Shown: piece by piece, positions 1,869-12,478 of the stretch | How positions within the stretch are numbered: position 1 is the stretch's first letter | Layout: every line of letters starts with the position of its first letter | NCBI GenBank assembly: GCA_030820665.1 | Contig: GCA_030820665.1_4852.1 | Strand: one strand, 5' to 3' | Length of the DNA stretch: 17,779 nucleotides | Source: a phage | Program-made: the position numbers and the translations under genes | Notes under the pieces: generated by a model | What the model saw: the letters and a program-made list of their open reading frames with translations, nothing else | The model's database searches: none | Told to the model about the DNA's origin: nothing

Positions 1869-1872
1869 TGTG

Positions 1873-2067
1873 ATGATTAAGATGAGCAAGATGAGCAACA
1901 GAAGCAAGGTTTGCAGGATTGCTTTATTGCCAATCTTCCTGCCTGTGTGGTTGTTATGGGTTTTATTTTCTGGGGCGAGAAATCTATTTGAGTATCTTGA
2001 ATTTTGTCAGGCAAAGGTTATACGAAAATTCCATGATGTCATTGATAAGTGGTTTCCGCTTGGTTGA
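1873..2067 (+). CDS. Hypothetical small membrane protein (one predicted TM helix)
   Basis: GTG 1870 / ATG 1873 follows GAGGGTGATGTG; hydrophobic stretch IALLPIFLPVWLLWVLF. Confidence 0.5.
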   Translation: MIKMSKMSNRSKVCRIALLPIFLPVWLLWVLFSGARNLFEYLEFCQAKVIRKFHDVIDKWFPLG

Positions 2068-4098: not shown

Positions 4099-5029
4099 CG
4101 CAAGGCTACCCCAACCGCGCATATCGCAGAGCCTGACAGACCCGCTGGGTGCTGCGACTCGCCTGTCGAAGATGGATAAGGTGATAACGCGCAAATACAA
4201 ACAATTCAGGACTCGTGCTCTTGAGTTGTTTCGCACTATTCCGAACGGTCAGGCTAATGCAGAATCAAGCGGTCTGTATTTCTACGATTTCAGCAGTGCA
4301 CGGGCTGCCACTTTCATGGATGAGTTACAGGCGCTGATTGACGAGATTCTTCTTGAAGGTGATGATTTCGGTCACGGCAGGATGTGGGCCAATGTGTTCA
4401 TTGGTGATGCGTATCAGGCCGGAACACAAAAGGCTAACTCAGAACTGTCAAGCCTGTCTCCGGTTTACGCTGAGCAGAGGCCGATTGCCGCGATACTCTA
4501 CAGTGAGCCTTACCTGAATCGGCTCCAACTGGCTTATACGCAAGGTTACTCAGACTGGCGCGGATTGAGTGATTACTCCCGCCAGCAACTGGCATCTGTC
4601 ATTATGGAAGGCATTGCCCGTGGCGCTAATCCTCGCGATGTTGAAGCTGACATTGTTAAACGTGTTGATGTATCTCACAGCTACGCGAAACAGTTGGCGC
4701 AGACTGAAATAACCGGAACGCTACGTCAGGCTAACAGGCGGGAGGTCATTGAGGCGCGCGAAGAGTTAGGCATTGAGACGGTGATGCTGTGGCAATCGGC
4801 GTTGATGCGCACAACCCGCCAGACGCACGCAGCGCGACACGGACGGTTTTATACACCAGAAGAGATTGACACGTTTTATAGCGAGAATGGCAATAAATAT
4901 AATTGTCACTGTGCACAAACACCAGCATTGCTAATGGATGGGAAACCAGTCATTCTTGAATCCTCGCAGGAAAGGCTTGATAAACAGCGTGAAGCATGGC
5001 AATCAGTCAACAAAAAGCCCTCTAAGTGA
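4079..5029 (+). CDS. Head morphogenesis protein, MuF / SPP1 gp7-like (minor head protein)
   Basis: ORF track 3998-5029; the ATG at 4079 (MKILRF...) overlaps the portal stop by 20 nt. Position after the portal and about 315 aa fit the MuF-like family. Start is uncertain (4172 is an alternative). Confidence 0.65.
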
Positions 5030-5047
5030 GGGCTTGGTTTTGTCTTG
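5016..5047. terminator. Rho-independent terminator between convergent genes
   Basis: AGCCCTC (5016-5022) / GAGGGCT (5028-5034) stem with a 5-nt loop, followed by TGGTTTTGTCTTG. The stem overlaps the stop codon of the MuF-like gene. Confidence 0.6.
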
Positions 5048-5112: not shown

Positions 5113-5757
5113 TTAATCATCCAGTTTCACGCCTGGAATTTTTCCTGCTGCAATGGCTTCATAAATTAGCTTGGCCTCGTCCTCGCGCCTGTAATCTTGA
5201 GCTGCCATTTCTAACACCGCGCAGATAGACTCAAGTACAGCCTCATGCTTCTTTTCTGCTTCTGTGCGTAGTGGTTTTAGGCTTTCCGGTACGAAGCAGC
5301 ATGACCGACCAGCACCACCTTCATCCCAATAGCAAACAGCCACATCGTTTCCGTCCGTTGTTGTCTTGTGCGCTACAACTTCCATTTCAGTGCCAGCATC
5401 AGGAATCCAGTCATTGCAGTATCCTAACTTTGGATTAAAGAAGAATTCTACTTTTGCACCAACTGGCGGCAGGCCTTCTCCATTCCATGTCTGCTTTTGC
5501 AATGCTGCTAGCGCGGATTCATACAAGTCGCGAGTTATCATACAATAATCCGTGGCTACGCTGACATAGCGACCGGGTATGGGGATTGCCACGGTGTACT
5601 GAAATGGCACATCAAAACCATCGCTATATCCCTTTGGGAAACAAAAAGCAATTGTGATACTGTCACCATTGAAATCACCAACTCGACACCTCTCAGCACC
5701 ATCAGGCCACCCACCACGCTTAGGTAATTCTTGAACTAACAGGTCGATAAGTTTCAT
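5113..5757 (-). CDS. Hypothetical protein (214 aa), distal gene of the minus-strand operon
   Basis: Uninterrupted minus-strand ORF; its start overlaps the stop of the upstream gene (5754-5757). No motif recognised. Confidence 0.65.
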   Translation of the reverse strand: MKLIDLLVQELPKRGGWPDGAERCRVGDFNGDSITIAFCFPKGYSDGFDVPFQYTVAIPIPGRYVSVATDYCMITRDLYESALAALQKQTWNGEGLPPVGAKVEFFFNPKLGYCNDWIPDAGTEMEVVAHKTTTDGNDVAVCYWDEGGAGRSCCFVPESLKPLRTEAEKKHEAVLESICAVLEMAAQDYRREDEAKLIYEAIAAGKIPGVKLDD

Positions 5758-6068
5758 TTTGTTTCTCCCAATGCTTTATTAACCGCGGCACGTGCATTAT
5801 CCAGAGCGCGACGCTTGCTTGATGTTGTCCAGCATTTTCCGGAGTGGTCGTCGTAGATTTCCAGAAGTTGCTGGAGTGCTGATAACAGGTCAGGAGATGC
5901 CGCTATTAGCCTTGCGTTATGCCATTGCTCGGTTTTATCACCGTTATATGTTGGAGTGAATGCAACCTCGACACCAATATCCGAGATAACATCTGGCGCG
6001 TTATCATCACCAACAACAACTTCCCATTTTCCATGCGTACCTTTAAATTCTTTCACATCCAACCTCAC
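5754..6068 (-). CDS. Hypothetical protein (104 aa), GTG start
   Basis: Minus ORF with no internal Met; the GTG start at 6068 overlaps the TGA of the upstream mini-ORF (GTGA). Confidence 0.55.
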   Translation of the reverse strand: MRLDVKEFKGTHGKWEVVVGDDNAPDVISDIGVEVAFTPTYNGDKTEQWHNARLIAASPDLLSALQQLLEIYDDHSGKCWTTSSKRRALDNARAAVNKALGETK

Positions 6069-6208
6069 TTAATATACTCAACAATCTCAACTTCACGCAT
6101 CTGCACCAGGCCAAATGGTGCAACCACCTTACCGCACGGACGGATTTTGATTTGCTCAAGGTTGAACACTCCGCAGCGTCCGTTTTCTTTGAATTTGACC
6201 ATTACCAT
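6065..6208 (-). CDS. Hypothetical mini-protein (47 aa)
   Basis: Hand translation of the minus strand: MVMVKFKENGRCGVFNLEQIKIRPCGKVVAPFGLVQMREVEIVEYIK. Packed between neighbours with overlapping stop/start codons. Confidence 0.4.
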   Translation of the reverse strand: MVMVKFKENGRCGVFNLEQIKIRPCGKVVAPFGLVQMREVEIVEYIK

Positions 6209-6210
6209 AA

Positions 6211-6369
6211 TTAATACCCGTTTTTCTTGGCTAATTGTTGCGCACGTTTCTTCGTGTACCCACAGGCCATCAGGCGCTTGACCTCGTTGCGGCGCCTTGC
6301 GAAATGGTACTCACGAGAATTAAATGCACATTCGTTGCTAAAGTTAACATTACGTGGATTCATCTTCAT
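6211..6369 (-). CDS. Hypothetical basic mini-protein (52 aa), first gene of the minus-strand operon
   Basis: Hand translation: MKMNPRNVNFSNECAFNSREYHFARRRNEVKRLMACGYTKKRAQQLAKKNGY. Strong SD (GAGGTGATGAAG then ATG) on the minus strand; Lys/Arg-rich C-terminal half. Confidence 0.45.
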   Translation of the reverse strand: MKMNPRNVNFSNECAFNSREYHFARRRNEVKRLMACGYTKKRAQQLAKKNGY

Positions 6370-6432
6370 CACCTCATTCATCACTTGATGTAGATACTAT
6401 GCACCAACAACCAATCTACGTCAACACCATTG

Positions 6433-6441
6433 TGATAGAAT
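6433..6441 (+). promoter_or_regulatory. Candidate extended -10 promoter (TGaTAGAAT) for the lysis cassette
   Basis: TG at 6433-6434, TAGAAT at 6436-6441, about 27 nt upstream of the GGAGG SD of the 6468 gene; lies in a divergent intergenic region. Confidence 0.3.
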
Positions 6442-6467
6442 TAATCATTATTTGAACTGGAGGCAGA

Positions 6468-6746
6468 ATGAAACTATCGCAACGAGGCGTGGAGACGTTT
6501 GGAATTACCGATGCCGTGAATATATCGCCTTACATCACTACCGAGACAACGCAGAATCAGTTCGACGCGCTGGCAAGTCTTGCCACCGACATTGGCATTT
6601 ACGCGTTCCGTAAATCAACGCTTCTGAAGAAGCACAACCTCCGCTGCTTCTCATGTGCTGTTGCGCATTTCATCGCGTGGGGCGAGAAGACTGGCGACAA
6701 AGCAAAACGCAAAGCTGAAAAAGAGGTTTACTGGTATGGCTATTAG
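6468..6746 (+). CDS. GH24 (T4/P22-type) lysozyme-like protein, truncated; probably catalytically inactive
   Basis: Strong SD (GGAGG, 5-nt spacer). The C-terminal half, TQNQFDALASLATDIGIYAFRKSTLLKKHNLR...AHFIAWGEKTGDK, matches the conserved C-lobe of GH24 phage lysozymes (recalled P22 gp19-type NQNQYDALCSL..IG.SAF.GSTVLRQLNL...AF..W). The N-terminal catalytic region is reduced to about 27 residues. Confidence 0.55.
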   Translation: MKLSQRGVETFGITDAVNISPYITTETTQNQFDALASLATDIGIYAFRKSTLLKKHNLRCFSCAVAHFIAWGEKTGDKAKRKAEKEVYWYGY

Positions 6747-7200
6747 TAAAAACATGAAGGCGTTTCTGGATATGCTGGCGTACAGCGAGGGCACTGATAA
6801 CGGGCGGCAGAAAACCAATAATCATGGTTATGATGTGATTGTTGGCGGCTCACTGTTTACCGACTATTCCGACCACCCGCGCAAGCTGATTAGCCTGCCA
6901 AGGCTGGGCATTAAATCCACCGCCGCCGGTCGCTATCAGGTACTGGCTAAGTTTTATGATGCGTACAAAAAGCAATTGCGTTTACCGGACTTCTCCCCCG
7001 CATCGCAGGACGCCATTGCAATGCAGCTAATCCGTGAATGCAAGGCCACCGCTGATATTGAGGCTGGTCGCATTGCTGATGCCATCCATAAATGCCGCTC
7101 CCGCTGGGCCTCATTGCCGGGCGCTGGGTATGGTCAGCATGAGCAGAAGCTGGATAAGCTGATTCAGGTATACAAAGAGGCTGGCGGAGCTGTGGCATGA
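6736..7200 (+). CDS. Endolysin, lambda R-type lytic transglycosylase
   Basis: From the ATG at 6736 (AAGAGG SD upstream) the protein is MAISKNMKAFLDMLAYSEGTDNGRQKTNNHGYDVIVGG...WASLPGAGYGQ..., near-colinear with lambda R as recalled, including the catalytic Glu context LAYSEGTD. Confidence 0.88.
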   Translation: MAISKNMKAFLDMLAYSEGTDNGRQKTNNHGYDVIVGGSLFTDYSDHPRKLISLPRLGIKSTAAGRYQVLAKFYDAYKKQLRLPDFSPASQDAIAMQLIRECKATADIEAGRIADAIHKCRSRWASLPGAGYGQHEQKLDKLIQVYKEAGGAVA

Positions 7201-7436
7201 AAAAGCTAAGCAACTGGCTGCTCGCCGCGTGGATTTCATTCTGCTCGCTGTTACAACTATGGCCTGATGCAATGATGCATGTGTGGGTAATGATGCCGGA
7301 TGACCTGAAAGCAGCGCTACCGCTAATCGTGGTCAAAGGTGTGAGTTACTCAATTATGCTTGTCGGCATCATCGGCAAAATGCACGGCATGAGGAAGGAA
7401 AACCGGAGGCTGCGCAATGATGTCGATTCTCGTTAA
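7197..7436 (+). CDS. Putative holin (two predicted TM helices, charged C-terminus)
   Basis: 79 aa; the ATGA overlaps the endolysin stop. Hydrophobic segments LSNWLLAAWISFCSLLQLW and LPLIVVKGVSYSIMLVGIIG, then KMHGMRKENRRLRNDVDSR. Confidence 0.45.
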   Translation: MKKLSNWLLAAWISFCSLLQLWPDAMMHVWVMMPDDLKAALPLIVVKGVSYSIMLVGIIGKMHGMRKENRRLRNDVDSR

Positions 7437-7908
7437 ATACTGGCGACCGCTGGCAATTATTATAATTGTTGCCGCTGGCGCGTTGTGGGTGGCAAATAAA
7501 GTGTCCGGTTATGGCGAGCAACAATATGCCGCCGGATACGCGAAGGCAGTCGCAGAACAGAAGGCCGCAGACGAACAAGAGGAGCAACGACGCAATGCAG
7601 AACTGCAAAAGATTCAGGCCGACGCACAGCAAAGGATTGATGCTGCGCGCAATGATGCTGTTAATGCTGCCGCTAAGTCTGGCAGGTTGCAGCAACAACT
7701 CACCAGTATCCGCAAGCAGCTCGTCGGATATTCCACCGCTGAGTCCATTGGCAACCCAGCCGCAGAAACCGGAGTTTTGCTTGCAGACGTGCTCCGCAAA
7801 TCTGTCGAAAGAAATCAACAGCTGGCAGATTACGCTGACAGGGCGAGAGAGGCAGGATTGACGTGTGAGGCACAGTATAATTCTCTGCGTAATAAAAAAG
7901 CCCCGTGA
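7417..7908 (+). CDS. Rz-like inner-membrane spanin (i-spanin)
   Basis: N-terminal TM helix (LAIIIIVAAGALWVA) followed by a Gln/Ala/Glu/Arg-rich predicted coiled coil; CCGGAGG SD; lies after the endolysin and holin candidate. Confidence 0.75.
   Translation: MMSILVKYWRPLAIIIIVAAGALWVANKVSGYGEQQYAAGYAKAVAEQKAADEQEEQRRNAELQKIQADAQQRIDAARNDAVNAAAKSGRLQQQLTSIRKQLVGYSTAESIGNPAAETGVLLADVLRKSVERNQQLADYADRAREAGLTCEAQYNSLRNKKAP
7640..7861 (+). CDS. Rz1-like outer-membrane lipoprotein spanin (o-spanin), nested in the +1 frame of the Rz-like gene
   Basis: ATG 7640 with AAAGGA SD. Translates MLRAMMLLMLPLSLAGCSNNSPVS...DIPPLSPLATQPQKPEF...: signal peptide, lipobox LAGC, proline-rich periplasmic segment. 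Lies entirely inside 7417-7908. Confidence 0.75.
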   Translation: MLRAMMLLMLPLSLAGCSNNSPVSASSSSDIPPLSPLATQPQKPEFCLQTCSANLSKEINSWQITLTGRERQD

Positions 7909-7922
7909 TGGGGCTTTGTTTT
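7898..7922. terminator. Rho-independent terminator (bidirectional) closing the lysis cassette
   Basis: AGCCCC (7899-7904) / GGGGCT (7910-7915) stem with loop GTGAT; A-run upstream and T-run downstream. Overlaps the Rz-like stop codon. Confidence 0.7.
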
Positions 7923-7942
7923 AACCTTCTCCGTAGCCAATG

Positions 7943-8320
7943 TCACGCATAAAGCGCCTCCATCTTGTACCCAAACATAATTGCATTCTGATGCTCAGTG
8001 CTACCAGAAAACACCAGATAGCGTTTACCTCGATTATCCGTAACGATGTAGGCAGCTGGTGAGTTTTCCTTCCTAAATCTGGCTTCGTCATCACTCCCTT
8101 CATACATCCTCCCACTCGCTGGCAGATACAAATCGAATGTTTGAATTTCCGTTCCGCTGCATTCATTGCTACGTTCATTGAACAGGATAGCCAATCTTGG
8201 GTTGCCATTGGAATGCTTTGCAGGGAATGCGATTCTCCAGCCATCGCACATATACTGACTTGGGTAGGATAGCCATGACTTACCGCGCCTACCCTCCGTA
8301 AGAATCGGCTTACTCGCCAT
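7943..8320 (-). CDS. Hypothetical protein (125 aa)
   Basis: Minus ORF (track 7943-8368). The ATG at 8320 has a strong SD (GGAGGATCATA then ATG). No motif recognised. Confidence 0.55.
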   Translation of the reverse strand: MASKPILTEGRRGKSWLSYPSQYMCDGWRIAFPAKHSNGNPRLAILFNERSNECSGTEIQTFDLYLPASGRMYEGSDDEARFRKENSPAAYIVTDNRGKRYLVFSGSTEHQNAIMFGYKMEALYA

Positions 8321-8585
8321 TATGATCCTCCACAATCCGCACCAGTGAGCACTCAAGATTCGGTGCATTGTAATTACCAGCCAGAAACAGCACGCTACCA
8401 GTGCTAATAAGCACCTGCTTCGCGTTCGCCTGCGACAGATTCTGCACGATGAATTGCGCTGTTTCTGTGCCGATTTTCAGCACTGCGCTGCCGTCGCTGT
8501 TCAGTGATACAAGTTGTGCGGAAGTGTCAGTAATGTTGGTGAAGTTCGCGTTTCGCTGCGCGATTGTGATGTCGCAAAAAGACAT
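8310..8585 (-). CDS. Hypothetical protein (91 aa)
   Basis: Minus ORF; overlaps the downstream gene start by 11 nt and abuts the upstream gene. Confidence 0.5.
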   Translation of the reverse strand: MSFCDITIAQRNANFTNITDTSAQLVSLNSDGSAVLKIGTETAQFIVQNLSQANAKQVLISTGSVLFLAGNYNAPNLECSLVRIVEDHNGE

Positions 8586-8887
8586 TATTTAATCTCTCCG
8601 TTCAGTTCATTAACAATTAACGTTGCATAGCCAGCAATATCTTTCCAGCTGTCATCATAAGTCGGGTCGCCATTCAGAATGCGCCCAATCTTGTGCTGAA
8701 TCATGTCGAGCGCCTCGCGTTGACTTGGTGTGAGATTGCGCCAGCCATCTACCTTGCGCATCACATCTTTCAACTCCTGCATAATTTCAGCGCCGTCTTT
8801 GAATTTACCGTATCGACTACCGCGTTCGGTGATGAGTCGCTCTGTTGCGTCAGTATGGCGCTTATCGCCCGTGATTTGTGAACTCAT
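8585..8887 (-). CDS. Hypothetical protein (100 aa), probably all-alpha
   Basis: Minus ORF with SD GGAGAA. Translates MSSQITGDKRHTDATERLITERGSRYGKFKDGAEIMQELKD...SQREALDMIQHKIGRILNGDPTYDDSWKDIAGYATLIV. No confident family assignment. Confidence 0.55.
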   Translation of the reverse strand: MSSQITGDKRHTDATERLITERGSRYGKFKDGAEIMQELKDVMRKVDGWRNLTPSQREALDMIQHKIGRILNGDPTYDDSWKDIAGYATLIVNELNGEIK

Positions 8888-9374
8888 TGTGATGCATTCT
8901 CCTGAATTCTTTTATTTTTGCTTCTGCTTCTCTTATGTCGGAAAAGTAACCAACTGTGAATCTTTTGCCATTTACTCCAACTCTTGCATGCCACTTGTTG
9001 TGCGATGAACTCCAGTTAACCCCCTTGATACCGCTAGTGTTGTTTTTGTTCATTGCTTTGTTGTGGCTATTCTCAAATTTGCTGGCCTCCCTTAAATTGC
9101 ACGCCCTGTTGTCATTGCGAATGCCATTAATGTGGTCAATCATTTCACTTGCTGGCGCGCCATGAATGCATATCCATGCCAATCTGTGAGCAAGAAAAGC
9201 CCTACCGCAAAGAATTATTTGCACATATCCATCTGGCTTTAAGTAGCCAGCCACACTCCCTTTTTCTGCAATCCTATTCCTTGTCTTTAGCCATTTAAAT
9301 TCCCCAGTTAGTGGATTGTAGTAAAGGTAACTCAATATAAACTCCCTACTCGGCTCATCTCTCCTATGCCTCAT
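8862..9374 (-). CDS. HNH homing endonuclease (HNH_3-type core with AP2-like C-terminal domain)
   Basis: Motifs YNPLTGEFKW, HRLAWICIHG, IDHINGIRNDNRACNLR and C-terminal SGIKGVNWSSSHNKWHARVGVNGKRFTVGYFSDIREAEAKIKEF. The region looks AT-richer than the flanking sequence. Confidence 0.85.
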   Translation of the reverse strand: MRHRRDEPSREFILSYLYYNPLTGEFKWLKTRNRIAEKGSVAGYLKPDGYVQIILCGRAFLAHRLAWICIHGAPASEMIDHINGIRNDNRACNLREASKFENSHNKAMNKNNTSGIKGVNWSSSHNKWHARVGVNGKRFTVGYFSDIREAEAKIKEFRRMHHNEFTNHGR

Positions 9375-9577
9375 TTCTCATCCTCTTTCATTGTCACCCT
9401 ATTATTCTCGTCAACACTGAAGTTGGCCCGAATCAAATCATACATATCTTCCTTAGGCATATCAGCCAGCGCCACATAGCAACGGGCGAAGTAGCGAACA
9501 TCACGGAGTGTCAGCGGTTGTCGCTTCTCCACAATGCTGGTGATAATGTCCATCGGCTCGCGTCGTGGTCTTGGCAT
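9371..9577 (-). CDS. Hypothetical protein (68 aa), first gene of the minus-strand operon
   Basis: Strong SD on the minus strand (GAAGGAGTAGTAAAT then ATG); its stop overlaps the HNH start (ATGA). Confidence 0.5.
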   Translation of the reverse strand: MPRPRREPMDIITSIVEKRQPLTLRDVRYFARCYVALADMPKEDMYDLIRANFSVDENNRVTMKEDEK

Positions 9578-9676
9578 ATTTACTACTCCTTCTCGAAAAA
9601 CATCTTGACGTTTCTACATCATTTAGTCAATGCTTGTTGACGTAGATTGTACCACAACGGAAAAGGTGATGTGGAA
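9578..9676. promoter_or_regulatory. Divergent intergenic region, probable promoter(s) for the 9577 minus operon and the 9677 plus block
   Basis: 99-bp AT-rich gap between divergently oriented genes. TTGACG (9606-9611) and TTGACG (9637-9642) on the plus strand; TTGACT and TACAAT-like hexamers on the minus strand. Spacing is not ideal for any single pair. Confidence 0.25.
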
Positions 9677-9874
9677 ATGCGATACAAAGAAATAGCAGCG
9701 AGATACCAGAAGGAAGTTCGCGAGGTTATGGAAATCCTTAACGTTCGCGAGGATACCATTAAGTTTGTGGAAACCGCCATGTGTTCACTGGCGCTTGAAG
9801 CGGAGGTTGCGGGTCGTGAAAAGGCTGACGAACTTATATCTGCGGTGGTTTATAGTTCAACCAGTAACGGTTGA
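9677..9874 (+). CDS. Hypothetical protein (65 aa)
   Basis: ATG 9677 with AAGGTG SD (track ORF 9647 starts at an upstream TTG). Confidence 0.45.
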   Translation: MRYKEIAARYQKEVREVMEILNVREDTIKFVETAMCSLALEAEVAGREKADELISAVVYSSTSNG

Positions 9875-9934
9875 AGATGAAGGTTATCTGTGCGTTGAGC
9901 ACGTTGTTATCAAATTCTACGGGAGAAATTATAA

Positions 9935-10129
9935 ATGGCGCATGACGAACTGTACGAAGAATCGTTAATCCAGAGGTTGAATGAAGTTGAGCGCACTCGC
10001 GAATGGCTGGAGTGCGAGTTACGAGAAGTGCGCAACCGCCTGCAACGCAAGCGCAGTCAGCAAAGAGATGTCATCGACTGGTCTGGGGGTACACCTAAAT
10101 TTAACAATCTGGGAGAATGGTTGAAATGA
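9935..10129 (+). CDS. Hypothetical protein (64 aa), charged, probably helical
   Basis: GGGAGA SD; its stop overlaps the start of the downstream HNH gene. Confidence 0.45.
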   Translation: MAHDELYEESLIQRLNEVERTREWLECELREVRNRLQRKRSQQRDVIDWSGGTPKFNNLGEWLK

Positions 10130-10656
10130 GCAACATTAGTAAGGAAAGCATTTTAAAGTTCCTCCAGCATGATGAAAATACAGGAAACTTTCTATGGATT
10201 GATAATTTCTCAAGAAAATCAAAGAAAGGGAAGGTGGCTGGAGGTATTACATCGCATGGGTATTGGAGAATTCAACTCCCCATCGGGAGGTTTTACGCAC
10301 ACAGAATGGCGTGGATTGTTTGCAATGGAGATATACCAAACGGATATGAGATTGATCACATAAATGGGAACAAGAAAGATAATCGCATCAGCAACCTAAG
10401 ATTGGTCACAAGAGGTCAAAATGTTATGAATGTAGGCGTGAAAAACAATAATACAAGCGGAGTTAAGGATGTTGTTTGGGACTCTTCGCGAGAAAGGTGG
10501 AGGGTTCAAATTACAGCCAATGGCAAGCATTATTATGGAGGTAGATTCTCGTCAATAACACAAGCAAAAGAGGAGAGGAACAGGCTCATAAAGATGGTTC
10601 ACGGGAAATTTTTGAATACAAAAGGTGAGCAATATGACACTACTAATGAACGATGA
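10126..10656 (+). CDS. HNH homing endonuclease (HNH_3-type core with AP2-like C-terminal domain)
   Basis: Motifs ENTGNFLW, HRMAWIVCNG, IDHINGNKKDNRISNLR and SGVKDVVWDSSRERWRVQITANGKHYYGGRFSS; paralogous to 8862-9374 and to the fragment at 1-168. Start is 10126 or 10117. Confidence 0.85.
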   Translation: MSNISKESILKFLQHDENTGNFLWIDNFSRKSKKGKVAGGITSHGYWRIQLPIGRFYAHRMAWIVCNGDIPNGYEIDHINGNKKDNRISNLRLVTRGQNVMNVGVKNNNTSGVKDVVWDSSRERWRVQITANGKHYYGGRFSSITQAKEERNRLIKMVHGKFLNTKGEQYDTTNER

Positions 10657-10870
10657 GAAATTACTTGAATGCCCGTTTTGTGGTTGTGATGACGTAAGTG
10701 TTATTGATGACGGCGAATGGTTGCACGTTGAGTGCGGAGATTGTTTTTGCCGCACTGACTCGTATTGCTGCGCATCCACGGCAATGAAGAAATGGAACAC
10801 AAGAGGTGGACACCTCTACACTTCCGACGACTTCAATCAGGCAGCAGAGGAGCGTGATTATGGACTATAA
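10634..10870 (+). CDS. Lar-like zinc-finger protein (restriction-alleviation family candidate)
   Basis: About 78 aa with LLECPFCG...x19...CGDCFC plus additional Cys, and a C-terminal AMKKWNTRGG resembling the Lar-family ...AWNRR ending (family recalled from memory). AGGTGA SD; the 5' end overlaps the HNH 3' end by 23 nt. Confidence 0.55.
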   Translation: MTLLMNDEKLLECPFCGCDDVSVIDDGEWLHVECGDCFCRTDSYCCASTAMKKWNTRGGHLYTSDDFNQAAEERDYGL

Positions 10871-11348
10871 ATCACAAATCATGCGCGTGATTATGAATCA
10901 CCCCGGAGCAACGCGCGCATACATTGAGAAGCATTGCGGAGGTAAGCATTCAAGCACCACAACGCATCGCTTACATGAGATGCTTGCTCTTGGATTCATT
11001 CGTCGCGAGAAGTCAGTGATTCGCGGCGGCAAGTGGCAGTATAAATATTTCATCTCTGATGATGCAGCCGGTATTGATGATGCTATTAAGTGCCATTTGC
11101 TTGATAACGCTGGCGCGGAAGTGAAAGAAATCAGTACCACCACTGGCATTGATTATCGCATCGTGAAAAGCCGCATCCGCATTATGTTTCATAACGGTGA
11201 TGTGACGCGAAGCTATGACCACCACAAGAAGCTGTGGCGTTATTCATGGAAGGAGAAGGAAGTCAATGTAAGCAATCTATTTAATTCACTTCTTCGCAGC
11301 GTAAGGGGTCAGCATGGGAAAAGCCAAACGCAAGAAGCAAGAGTATGA
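10860..11348 (+). CDS. Putative DNA-binding protein with two winged-helix-like repeats
   Basis: The ATG at 10860 overlaps the Lar-like stop. Two similar segments (MRVIMNHPGATRAYIEKHCG...RLHEMLALGFIRRE and KEISTTTGIDYRIVKSRIRIMFHNGDVTRS) resemble wHTH recognition units. Pattern-based only. Confidence 0.45.
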   Translation: MDYKSQIMRVIMNHPGATRAYIEKHCGGKHSSTTTHRLHEMLALGFIRREKSVIRGGKWQYKYFISDDAAGIDDAIKCHLLDNAGAEVKEISTTTGIDYRIVKSRIRIMFHNGDVTRSYDHHKKLWRYSWKEKEVNVSNLFNSLLRSVRGQHGKSQTQEARV

Positions 11349-12150: not shown

Positions 12151-12335
12151 GCGAACCAAAATTTCCAGAGCTGCCTGTTGAGGTTCAGGTTGCATTGATC
12201 AATGCGGCAAGTGCAATGGCGACAAAGAAGATTGAGGCAATAGGCAGTGATTACAACAGGAGCATAGACTGGTTTCAGAGGGAGTATCAAAAAATCTGCG
12301 ACGCACTCTACAAAGAAAACAGAGGTAGATCATGA
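12147..12335 (+). CDS. Hypothetical protein (62 aa)
   Basis: Coupled ORF; its stop overlaps the next ATG (12332). Confidence 0.45.
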   Translation: MSEPKFPELPVEVQVALINAASAMATKKIEAIGSDYNRSIDWFQREYQKICDALYKENRGRS

Positions 12336-12478
12336 TTTCATTGCTTTGGATATTATCAGCATATGCATTTGCGAGAGTATTTGAGGCCGACACTCTGTAC
12401 CAGATGATTTGCTATGGCGCTCTGTTCTGTCTCTCTGGTGCTGCGCTCGCATTCATTGATGATGTGATTTCAGAATAA
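12332..12478 (+). CDS. Hypothetical small hydrophobic protein (48 aa; below the ORF-track cutoff)
   Basis: ATGA overlap with the upstream gene. Translates MISLLWILSAYAFARVFEADTLYQMICYGALFCLSGAALAFIDDVISE. Confidence 0.35.
   Translation: MISLLWILSAYAFARVFEADTLYQMICYGALFCLSGAALAFIDDVISE

What the first reader, a model, noticed from the sequence alone, without database searches (positions are those of the whole stretch)
7197..7436. Holin candidate lies downstream of the endolysin, and the lysis cassette sits inside the head-gene region
The only small two-TMD protein with a highly charged C-terminus in the cassette follows the endolysin instead of preceding it, and is translationally coupled to both the endolysin and the Rz-like gene. 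The whole cassette has its own candidate promoter and terminator and is inserted between the MuF-like gene and the scaffold/capsid genes. This suggests the lysis module is a self-contained mobile unit.
Basis: inference. Interest (0 to 1): 0.4.

Follow-up and report, generated by a model that had tools for sequence, protein, structure and literature searches.

The report
Known holin gene after the endolysin
The small membrane-protein gene is real and is most likely the phage's holin, but this gene order and position are already annotated in over a hundred related phages, and nothing shows that the lysis cassette is mobile.

Summary
The window comes from a virulent Salmonella/E. coli siphophage of the Skate / C1 / Vi II-E1 group, 99.4% identical to phage vB_SenS_ST1UNAM. 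The 79-aa ORF at 7197-7436 is real. It overlaps the stop of a lambda-R-type endolysin by 4 bases (ATGA) and the start of the i-spanin by 20 bases. It has one clear and one weaker hydrophobic helix and a basic C-terminus. It is under strong purifying selection (dN/dS 0.02-0.06). It belongs to Pfam DUF7940 and to PHROGs 13249 and 1356, both labelled "holin". Distant family members sit directly next to endolysins of at least five enzyme types, in the classical holin-endolysin-Rz order. This supports a lysis role, and it is the only holin-family candidate in the genome. No family member has been shown to be a holin. The one published test of an orthologue, a trigger-factor fusion at 16 C, was negative but uninformative. 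Skate's record already calls this gene a class II holin, and the phage swi2 paper describes the same cassette. The cassette is its own transcription unit with a strong bidirectional terminator. It keeps the same position even in the diverged Roufvirus group, diverges at the same rate as its flanks, and has no flanking repeats. The "mobile unit" reading is not supported. Exchange has happened inside the cassette: a lambda-R-type gene sits beside a catalytically dead GH24 lysozyme remnant.

The parts
6385..6467 (+). Divergent intergenic control region upstream of the lysis cassette. It holds the conserved 13-nt motif CAATCTACGTCAA (6412-6424), the extended -10-like TGATAGAAT (6433-6441) and the RBS GGAGG (6459-6463).
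   Evidence: The motif and the TGnTAGAAT element are invariant in Skate, C1 and ZCEC08 and nearly so in pYD38-A, while the surrounding bases diverge. The motif is repeated in inverted orientation at 9637-9649. It occurs 9 times in the ST1UNAM genome against 1.16 expected, mostly in intergenic regions next to operon starts. A leftward sigma-70-like site TTGACG-17-CATAGT at 6424-6396 overlaps the motif.
6468..6746 (+). 92-aa remnant of a GH24 (T4/P22-type) lysozyme. It lacks the catalytic lobe, and its last 11 bases (stop codon included) overlap the start of the endolysin gene.
   Evidence: It matches Pfam PF00959 positions 55-114 of 125 only. It shares the N-terminus MKLSQRG with the full-length pYD38-A endolysin, and its C-terminal part is 51% identical to that protein. 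The alignment shows about 55 residues missing, including the Glu, Asp/Cys and Thr positions. dN/dS is 0.15-0.20.
6736..7200 (+). 154-aa soluble endolysin of the lambda R type (lytic transglycosylase).
   Evidence: E = 6.5e-62 to lambda lysozyme structures 3D3D and 1AM7 over residues 3-153, with the SEGT catalytic-Glu motif kept. It matches phrog_90, endolysin. It has no hydrophobic segment (best KD 0.38). dN/dS is 0.01-0.04.
7197..7436 (+). 79-aa putative class II holin (DUF7940 family). This is the finding.
   Evidence: Pfam PF25612 scores 35.5 bits against a cutoff of 27. phrog_13249 'holin' gives 3.7e-49 and phrog_1356 'holin' gives 1e-6. Hydropathy, AF2 hairpin and charge distribution are. 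dN/dS is 0.02-0.06.
7417..7908 (+). 163-aa i-spanin (Rz-like): N-terminal TMD followed by a coiled-coil periplasmic domain.
   Evidence: Pfam DUF2514 4.4e-30 and phrog_312 'Rz-like spanin' 5.7e-51. The TMD lies at residues 12-30.
7595..7861 (+). Embedded o-spanin (Rz1-like lipoprotein) in the +1 frame of the i-spanin gene, with lipobox LAGC. A later in-frame ATG (MLRAMMLL...) is also a possible start.
   Evidence: phrog_11621 'Rz-like spanin' 1.7e-35. Skate annotates an O-spanin at the same place.
7897..7917 (.). Bidirectional intrinsic terminator shared with the convergent minus-strand operon. The i-spanin stop codon lies in its loop.
   Evidence: Terminator scan. Fold of -13.6 kcal/mol, z = -2.55. 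Skate annotates a terminator at the same place.

Best explanation
The ORF at 7197-7436 encodes the phage's holin. It is a 79-aa inner-membrane protein with two transmembrane helices, N-in/C-in (class II topology), and a basic cytoplasmic tail. It is made from one late transcript together with a soluble lambda-R-type transglycosylase and a two-component spanin. Overlapping stop and start codons tie the translation of the genes together. By analogy with studied holins (inferred), it accumulates in the membrane. At a set time it forms holes large enough to let the folded cytoplasmic endolysin reach the cell wall, and the spanins then disrupt the outer membrane. The endolysin-holin-spanin order is the inherited arrangement of this phage clade. 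The cassette is a fixed, separately terminated transcription unit in the accessory region between the head-morphogenesis and capsid genes. It is not a mobile element. What has changed over time is the endolysin. The ancestral GH24 gene, still intact in Roufvirus, survives as a 92-aa catalytically dead remnant, and a lambda-R-type gene now sits between it and the holin.
For: Shown: The gene is real and strongly constrained (dN/dS 0.02-0.06 against Skate and C1 at dS about 0.3). It has a helical hairpin with a clear TMD2, a weaker TMD1 and a positive-inside charge pattern. It belongs to DUF7940, phrog_13249 and phrog_1356. Of 36 diverse family members, 35 hit DUF7940 and all 36 hit a PHROG labelled holin. 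Family members in Septimatrevirus, Lokivirus, Serratia phage Stoker and Xanthomonas phage Suba lie immediately upstream of, and usually overlap, the endolysin gene in holin-endolysin-Rz cassettes beside the terminase genes. Their partner endolysins are of several unrelated types, including a SAR-type enzyme in PaMx42. Mix-and-match pairing with endolysins is typical of holins. The partner endolysin here is soluble and of the lambda R type, so it needs a hole-former. No other membrane protein in the 47.9-kb genome of the 99.4%-identical phage matches a holin family. GenBank and RefSeq records of relatives already name the gene holin, and Skate's record calls it a class II holin. The swi2 paper reports two TMDs for its orthologue (96.2% identical to the Skate holin) (PMC8185280). 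Position and order are conserved in Roufvirus pYD38-A. Inferred: hole formation, timing, and the size of the hole.
Against: No member of DUF7940 has been shown to be a holin, and Pfam still lists the family as of unknown function. The only direct test, on the swi2 orthologue, found no toxicity or lysis (PMC8185280). That protein was fused to a 52-kDa trigger-factor tag, was soluble, was poorly expressed, and was induced at 16 C without the endolysin, so the test cannot count against a membrane holin. TMD1 is only marginally hydrophobic on the Kyte-Doolittle scale, and no dedicated topology predictor was available. The distant homologues are all preceded by a second single-TMD protein. In those phages the family member could therefore be the antiholin rather than the holin. 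The relative's genome holds other small membrane proteins of unknown function.
Confidence: 0.75

Rival explanations
1. The 79-aa protein is a lysis regulator (antiholin-like) or has another membrane role, and the real hole-former is a different, unrecognised membrane protein of the phage.
For: The published expression test of the swi2 orthologue was negative. P2 encodes its antiholin LysA immediately downstream of its endolysin gene (PMC9671378). Distant DUF7940 genes are always paired with an upstream 104-130-aa single-TMD protein. The genome has other small membrane proteins. In the window these are 1870-2067 and 12332-12478. In ST1UNAM they include a 146-aa multi-TMD protein and a 94-aa protein ahead of the head-tail genes.
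Against: None of those other proteins matches a holin family or lies near an endolysin. The single-TMD partner seen in distant phages is absent from this cassette, so the DUF7940 protein is the only non-spanin membrane protein in it. The swi2 test design (TF fusion, 16 C) is not informative. An antiholin without a holin in the cassette would be unprecedented.
Confidence: 0.13
2. It is a pinholin in the manner of phage 21 S68. It makes small depolarising holes and its weakly hydrophobic first helix leaves the membrane.
For: It has class II architecture, and TMD1 is weakly hydrophobic and rich in Ser, Cys and Gln. One distant family member, in PaMx42, is paired with an endolysin that has an N-terminal Gly/Ala-rich TMD typical of SAR endolysins.
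Against: The endolysin here, and the 92-aa remnant, have no N-terminal hydrophobic segment (best KD 0.38 and 0.83). The endolysin aligns end to end with cytoplasmic lambda R. Small holes could not release it.
Confidence: 0.05
3. One reading: the lysis cassette is a self-contained mobile module that inserted into the head-gene region.
For: It has its own terminator and a conserved upstream control region. The region around it is mosaic and carries homing-endonuclease genes. Across phage groups, lysis genes do sit in different places. In Jersey the spanins lie among the head genes while holin and endolysin lie before the terminase, and in Septimatrevirus the DUF7940 holin cassette lies before the terminase.
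Against: The slot is the same in every relative examined, down to about 68% nucleotide identity. Identity across the cassette equals that of its flanks, with no breakpoints at its edges. There are no flanking repeats and no recombinase. It is absent from other phage backbones and from E. coli genomes. The observed exchanges are inside the cassette: the endolysin type, and a 152-bp insert at the holin/spanin junction in C1 and ZCEC08.
Confidence: 0.05

Closest known systems
Annotated lysis cassette of Salmonella phage Skate (MH321493) and Escherichia phage swi2 (MT768060; PMC8185280)
   Same: Same five genes in the same order and the same genome slot: 92-aa 'endolysin/glycosidase', lambda-type transglycosylase, 79-aa 'class II holin', i-spanin and embedded o-spanin, followed by a terminator. 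The cassette is about 90% identical in DNA to Skate's.
   Different: Only point differences. In the holin, the window has A10/A11, L43 and I59 where Skate has G10/V11, P43 and L59. The window's nearest relative is ST1UNAM, at 99.4%.
Roufvirus (Vibrio/Aeromonas phage pYD38-A / pIS4-A) lysis cassette
   Same: Endolysin-holin-spanin order, overlapping genes, and the same position between the head-morphogenesis and capsid genes. The holin is about 60% identical.
   Different: It has a single full-length 144-aa GH24 endolysin. It has no lambda-R-type gene and no truncated remnant.
DUF7940 / phrog_1356 'holins' of Septimatrevirus (PaMx42, vB_Pae_TR), Lokivirus IMEAB3, Serratia phage Stoker and Xanthomonas phage Suba
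   Same: Same family, with the shared loop motif W-x3-P-x-[DE]-[LIV]-K between two hydrophobic helices and a basic tail. The gene is directly adjacent to the endolysin gene and usually overlaps it.
   Different: There the gene precedes the endolysin, in the classical order next to the terminase genes. It is preceded by an extra single-TMD coiled-coil protein and is 83-96 aa long with an N-terminal extension. The endolysin types differ.
Phage 21 S68 (the prototype class II holin, a pinholin) and lambda S105 (a canonical large-hole holin)
   Same: Works like them in outline: a small membrane protein with a charged C-terminal tail, encoded in one cassette with the endolysin and the Rz/Rz1 equivalents. 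It has two TMDs like S21 68 and a lambda-R-type soluble endolysin partner like S105. The properties of S21 68 and S105 are stated from established knowledge.
   Different: No detectable sequence similarity to any named Pfam holin family. It has no dual-start motif, with a single Met followed by KK or KR. The partner is not a SAR endolysin, so the pinholin mode is unlikely.
Mycobacteriophage D29 lysA (gp10) - holin (gp11) - lysB (gp12)
   Same: [quoted passage not shown] This shows that the order is not unusual.
   Different: It is an unrelated protein in a Gram-positive-type host envelope, and it is followed by LysB rather than spanins.

Membership tests
Pfam DUF7940 (PF25612) | Score above the curated gathering threshold | tested here: met
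   35.5 bits against a cutoff of 27, E = 1.5e-8. All 51 close homologues carry PF25612. 35 of 36 diverse relatives match it.
PHROG 13249 / 1356 ('holin', by annotation only) | Significant profile match | tested here: met
   3.7e-49 over the full length, and 1e-6. 36 of 36 and 35 of 36 relatives match.
Holin (functional class) | Small integral membrane protein with at least one TMD and a hydrophilic, highly charged C-terminus | tested here: met
   79 aa. TMD2 has KD 2.05. 10 of the last 19 residues are charged, net +4. AF2 gives a hairpin.
Holin (functional class) | Encoded with or next to the endolysin in the lysis cassette | tested here: met
   It overlaps the endolysin stop and the i-spanin start. 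The adjacency is conserved across the family with several endolysin types.
Holin (functional class) | Lethal, timed hole formation; triggering by energy poisons; release of endolysin; complementation of a holin-null phage | not testable with these tools
   The only published test of an orthologue was negative, but it used a soluble TF fusion at 16 C (PMC8185280).
Class II holin topology (two TMDs, N-in/C-in) | Two membrane-spanning helices with both termini cytoplasmic | tested here: inconclusive
   TMD2 is clear. TMD1 (residues 7-22) is marginal, at 1.27 over 19 residues and 1.70 over 15. Charges of +2, -2 and +4 fit N-in/C-in. AF2 gives helices 2-32 and 43-78. TMHMM and Phobius calls of two TMDs exist only for relatives. 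No dedicated predictor was available here.
Pinholin / SAR-endolysin system | The partner endolysin carries an N-terminal signal-anchor-release domain | tested here: not met
   The endolysin's best 19-residue hydropathy is 0.38, and it aligns with soluble lambda R from residue 3.
Named Pfam holin families (Phage_holin_* and others) | Profile match | tested here: not met
   There is no hit at E <= 1 for the window protein or at E <= 0.01 for its 35 relatives. NCBIfam gives no match either.
Lambda R-type lytic transglycosylase (gene 6736-7200) | Full-length homology to lambda lysozyme, including the catalytic Glu in the SEGT motif | tested here: met
   E = 6.5e-62 to 3D3D and 1AM7, residues 3-153 against 4-153, with the motif AYSEGTDNG conserved.
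GH24 lysozyme (gene 6468-6746) | Catalytic Glu, Asp/Cys and Thr in the N-terminal lobe | tested here: not met
   Only profile positions 55-114 of 125 match. The alignment with 14 full-length GH24 proteins shows the catalytic lobe deleted. It therefore should not be filed as an active endolysin.
Two-component spanin (Rz/Rz1 type, embedded) | A type II membrane protein with a coiled-coil periplasmic domain, plus a lipoprotein with a lipobox encoded in the +1 frame within it | tested here: met
   DUF2514 4.4e-30, phrog_312 and phrog_11621. TMD at residues 12-30 and lipobox LAGC.
Mobile genetic module | Flanking repeats or a recombinase, variable location among relatives, or divergence different from the flanks | tested here: not met
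   Only chance-size repeats. The slot is the same in all relatives. Identity matches the flanks. There is no match in E. coli genomes.

The most novel reading that the evidence does not exclude
The conserved 92-aa GH24 remnant at 6468-6746 may be more than a decaying pseudogene. It keeps the N-terminal helix and the C-terminal lobe and has lost the catalytic lobe. It could be a retained non-catalytic lysis factor, for example a regulator of the holin or the endolysin, or a leader ORF whose translation sets endolysin output. In that case this clade would run a three-part control system: dead lysozyme, lambda-R-type endolysin and DUF7940 protein. My evidence also does not exclude that DUF7940 proteins are not the hole-formers at all, since no member has been validated.
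Probability: 0.15. Interest if true: 0.45.

Novelty: already known. Interest (0 to 1): 0.12.

Why it matters
It matters little as a discovery. The gene, its holin label, its position after the endolysin and the cassette's location are already in public annotations of more than a hundred phages and in one paper. There are three practical points. (1) The holin label for the whole DUF7940 family rests on position only, so a proper lysis assay would turn a DUF into a validated holin family. (2) The "second endolysin" that several papers report in these biocontrol phages lacks the catalytic residues and should not be counted as an active lysin without better evidence. (3) The cassette shows in-place replacement of an endolysin gene while the holin and spanins stayed put. 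This is a clean example of sub-cassette mosaicism.

Tried and rejected
- I first guessed that the ~150-bp length difference in ZCEC08 and C1 meant a full-length GH24 gene in those phages. It is instead a 152-bp insert with a 56-aa ORF at the holin/i-spanin junction.
- I recalled PRD1 as a precedent for endolysin followed by holin. The record shows holin XXXV following the virion transglycosylase genes VII/XIV, not endolysin XV, so I dropped it. D29 serves as the precedent instead.
- I tested whether the Jersey spanins, which lie in a similar head-region slot, are homologous to this i-spanin. They are not (E = 0.22). The Jerseyvirus S10 holin paper concerns a different, three-TMD holin.
- The sigma-70 consensus scan gave no + strand promoter for the cassette, and its hits were at chance level. 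The repeated 13-nt motif can be read either as part of the leftward promoter's -35 (TTGACG) or as a regulator site. I could not decide between these.
- A position-independent Hessa scale gave positive insertion energies for both helices. I judged it uninformative without the position-dependent terms.
- Literature searches for DUF7940 and for a functional test of any family member found nothing beyond swi2.
- NCBIfam gave no family for the holin or the endolysin.
- I did not run fold searches on the two-helix model, because matches to such a small hairpin would be meaningless.
Full report
**What the window is.** A megablast of 6400-7950 against phage records finds 160 records, 138 of them covering at least 80% of the query. 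The best is Salmonella phage vB_SenS_ST1UNAM at 99.4%. About 90-92% identity is seen to Escherichia phage C1 (Deseoctovirus), Salmonella phage Skate (Skatevirus), Vi II-E1, SeSz-2 and several BASEL-collection phages. The window starts at the end of the ST1UNAM record and runs collinear with it, apart from a few swapped accessory genes. It is therefore the left arm of a roughly 47-kb virulent siphophage. It carries the large terminase, small genes, the portal, a MuF-like head-morphogenesis gene, a roughly 7.5-kb accessory region, and then the scaffold/protease, decoration and major capsid genes.

**The observation.** The ORF at 7197-7436 (79 aa) is present.
- Its ATG overlaps the TGA of the preceding 154-aa ORF as ATGA, with GGAG 7 nt upstream.
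- The following 163-aa ORF starts at 7417, 20 nt before the 79-aa ORF ends, with GGAGG 6 nt upstream.
- Hydropathy gives a clear TM segment at residues 41-59 (Kyte-Doolittle 2.05). It gives a weaker one around 7-22 (1.70 over 15 residues, 1.27 over 19).
- AlphaFold2 on 19 homologues gives a helical hairpin with mean pLDDT 80.6: helices 2-32, 35-40 and 43-78.
- The charges are N-terminus +2, loop -2 and C-terminal tail +4, with 10 of 19 tail residues charged. This fits N-in/C-in.
The 154-aa protein aligns end to end with lambda lysozyme R (E = 6.5e-62 to 3D3D and 1AM7, SEGT motif conserved) and has no hydrophobic segment.
- The 163-aa protein is a DUF2514 / phrog_312 i-spanin. An embedded +1-frame ORF (7595-7861) is an o-spanin lipoprotein with lipobox LAGC.
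- The first gene (6468-6746) is discussed below.

**Is the 79-aa protein a holin?**
- It passes the Pfam threshold for DUF7940 (35.5 bits against 27). It matches phrog_13249 (3.7e-49) and phrog_1356 (1e-6), both labelled holin.
- It matches no named Pfam holin family and no NCBIfam model.
- The 51 close homologues (65-92% identical over the alignments) all carry PF25612, and where the contig is long enough it is 45-49 kb, so they come from the same kind of phage.
- A profile search of 1.84 billion representative proteins finds 34 clusters at E <= 1e-3. Aligned, they share an invariant Trp and Pro and a nearly invariant Lys in the loop between two hydrophobic helices (W-x3-P-x-[DE]-[LIV]-K), followed by a basic tail. 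A few members carry an extra N-terminal TMD.
- In annotated phages the distant members lie immediately upstream of the endolysin gene, usually overlapping it. This holds for Septimatrevirus vB_Pae_TR and PaMx42, Lokivirus IMEAB3, Serratia phage Stoker and Xanthomonas phage Suba. The cassettes have the classical holin-endolysin-Rz order next to the terminase genes.
- Their endolysins belong to several unrelated types, one with a SAR-like N-terminal TMD.
- Constant adjacency to interchangeable endolysins, in two different gene orders, is good guilt-by-association evidence for a lysis-control membrane protein.
- In this clade it is the only non-spanin membrane protein in the cassette, and its partner is a soluble endolysin that cannot cross the membrane unaided. 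The gene is under strong purifying selection (dN/dS 0.02-0.06, against 0.01-0.04 for the endolysin and 0.20 for the i-spanin).
- I scanned the whole genome of the 99.4%-identical relative. Its other membrane proteins are two single-TMD proteins between terminase and portal, a 146-aa and a 94-aa protein ahead of the head-tail genes, a superinfection-immunity protein, a secreted protein and a 35-aa peptide. None matches a holin family. The same holds for a 48-aa ORF at 12332-12478 in the window.

**Evidence against.** No member of the family appears to have been validated. A full-text search for DUF7940 returned nothing. The one experiment I found concerns phage swi2, whose holin is 96.2% identical to Skate's. 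[quoted passage not shown] That construct fuses a 52-kDa trigger-factor tag to the N-terminus. It yielded soluble protein, was induced at 16 C and lacked the endolysin, so it says little about a membrane holin. In the distant phages a second single-TMD coiled-coil protein always precedes the DUF7940 gene. There the family member could be holin or antiholin. P2 shows that an antiholin can be encoded just after the endolysin gene (PMC9671378). I put the holin reading at about 0.75.

**Is the gene order or location unusual, or a sign of mobility?**
- Skate's GenBank record annotates exactly this cassette: endolysin/glycosidase, endolysin/transglycosylase, class II holin, I-spanin, O-spanin and terminator. 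RefSeq records of many relatives call the gene holin. The swi2 paper describes the same five genes.
- The order endolysin-holin-spanin and the slot between the head-morphogenesis and capsid genes are kept in Roufvirus pYD38-A. Its holin DNA is only about 68% identical to the window's, and its structural genes are 67-74% identical.
- Against Skate, identity is about 90% both across the cassette and in the flanking small genes. Against ST1UNAM, one 99.4% block runs from 6372 to 10129, straight through the cassette. The mosaic breakpoints lie elsewhere, at 5523-6040, 6212-6372 and 10129-10791.
- No repeats flank the cassette other than 14-16-nt chance-size matches. All close homologues are in this phage type. 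No complete E. coli genome carries the cassette.
- Holin-after-endolysin is also normal elsewhere. In mycobacteriophage D29, lysA, the holin gene and lysB follow one another, each overlapping the next by 4 bases.
- The "mobile unit" inference is therefore not supported. The cassette is a fixed, separately transcribed unit.

**Transcription signals.**
- The terminator at 7897-7917 is convincing. It has an 8-bp stem with 5 G-C pairs, folds at -13.6 kcal/mol (z = -2.55), and is annotated in Skate. It lies between two convergent operons and has A/T runs on both sides.
- The promoter is only a candidate. The consensus scan found none on the + strand of 6385-6467, and its hits overall are at chance level.
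- The intergenic region does contain an extended -10-like TGATAGAAT (6433-6441) and a 13-nt motif CAATCTACGTCAA (6412-6424). Both stay conserved in pYD38-A while neighbouring bases diverge.
- The motif recurs inverted at 9637-9649. It occurs nine times with at most 2 mismatches in the ST1UNAM genome against 1.16 expected (0 of 100 shuffles reach nine). Most copies lie in intergenic regions next to operon starts.
- Its reverse complement begins with TTGACG. It may therefore be the -35 of the outward-facing promoters (TTGACG-17-CATAGT leftward at 6424-6396) or a regulator site. A MarR-type regulator gene lies at 10806-11348. I could not resolve this.

**What did change: the endolysin.**
- The first cassette gene (92 aa) matches only positions 55-114 of the 125-position Phage_lysozyme profile.
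- It starts with the same MKLSQRG as the full-length 144-aa GH24 endolysin of pYD38-A, and its C-terminal part is 51% identical to that protein.
- An alignment with 14 full-length GH24 proteins shows about 55 residues deleted, covering the catalytic Glu, Asp/Cys and Thr positions.
- The lambda-R-type gene is unrelated to the pYD38-A enzyme. It sits exactly between the remnant and the holin and overlaps both.
- The simplest history is that the ancestral cassette was GH24 endolysin, holin and spanin. A lambda-R-type gene was then acquired between endolysin and holin, and the old enzyme lost its catalytic lobe.
- The remnant is not free-running junk. Its dN/dS is 0.15-0.20, and it keeps its 92-aa length in more than 30 protein clusters. 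Two of these (P0114, P0118) have a C-terminal third that appears to be read in another frame and then returns to the original frame. This hints that translation up to the endolysin start codon matters at least as much as the protein sequence.
- Papers that count it as a second active lysin should be read with caution. Skate's note of an "Ex5Dx8T motif" has the reverse spacing of the canonical E-x8-D/C-x5-T (stated from established knowledge), and the alignment shows the true catalytic positions are gone.

**Verdict.** The arrangement is ordinary for this well-sampled phage group and is already annotated and published. The mobility inference fails every test I could apply. Novelty: already known. 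Interest: low.

Noticed in passing
window 6468-6746: The 92-aa 'lysozyme' is a GH24 enzyme with its catalytic lobe (about 55 aa, including Glu, Asp and Thr) deleted. It keeps the ancestral N-terminus MKLSQRG and the C-terminal lobe. It is under moderate purifying selection (dN/dS 0.15-0.20). Its 92-aa length is kept even in variants (P0114, P0118) whose C-terminal third appears to be read in another frame. It may act as a coupling leader ORF or as a non-catalytic factor. Papers and records call it an active second endolysin.
   Followed up: partly
window 6412-6424 (+) and 9637-9649 (-); L006 (ST1UNAM) 6453, 9679, 20077, 31931, 37602, 37612, 40254, 44205, 44222: The 13-nt motif CAATCTACGTCAA recurs, mostly in intergenic regions next to operon starts (9 copies against 1.16 expected). 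It is conserved in Roufvirus. It is often followed 9-12 nt later by TA(A/G)AAT, and its reverse complement begins with TTGACG. It could be a phage-specific promoter element or an operator. A MarR-like regulator gene lies at window 10806-11348.
   Followed up: partly
L011 (ZCEC08) 1319-1489 and L012 (C1) about 1330-1470: Close relatives carry a 152-bp insertion at the holin/i-spanin junction. It is flanked by a duplicated GGAGGYTGCGCRATG. It encodes a 56-aa soluble ORF that ends with the holin's original last nine residues, and it shortens the holin to 76 aa.
   Followed up: partly
window 8862-9374 (-) and 10117-10656 (+): There are two paralogous HNH/AP2-type homing-endonuclease-like ORFs. The second lies in a segment (10129-10791) with no counterpart in the 99%-identical ST1UNAM, so it looks like a recent insertion or replacement.
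   Followed up: partly
window 1870-2067 and 12332-12478: Two small predicted membrane proteins of unknown function lie among the late genes. One is 65 aa with one TMD (phrog_20630). The other is 48 aa with two hydrophobic segments and an acidic tail (phrog_18423), and ST1UNAM does not annotate it. Neither matches a holin family.
   Followed up: partly
L003 2076-2420, L004 2076-2456, L008 1607-1981, L009 1573-1965, L010 38-352: In every distant phage examined, the DUF7940 gene is preceded by a 104-130-aa single-TMD protein with a coiled-coil-like domain. This could be a holin/antiholin partner. It is absent from the window's cassette.
   Followed up: no
P0065, P0066, P0069, P0077, P0078 (alignment A4): Some DUF7940 family members have an extra N-terminal hydrophobic helix, giving three predicted TMDs. 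The family therefore spans two topological classes.
   Followed up: no
L007 (phage Jersey) 7501-7996 and 41182-42221: In Jerseyvirus the Rz/Rz1 spanin genes sit between the head-decoration and scaffold genes, about 10 kb (across the genome ends) from the holin-holin-endolysin genes ahead of the terminase. These spanins are not detectably homologous to the window's i-spanin.
   Followed up: partly
window 5899-6070 (within the minus-strand ORF 5754-6068): This accessory ORF is 72% identical in DNA to a gene in the replication arm of ST1UNAM (L006 37412-37588). It is thus a diverged second copy of a phage gene, in a slot where ST1UNAM has a different gene.
   Followed up: no
window 5015-5035: A second bidirectional terminator-like hairpin (8-bp stem) lies right after the MuF-like gene. 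It separates that gene from the convergent minus-strand operon 5113-6384.
   Followed up: no
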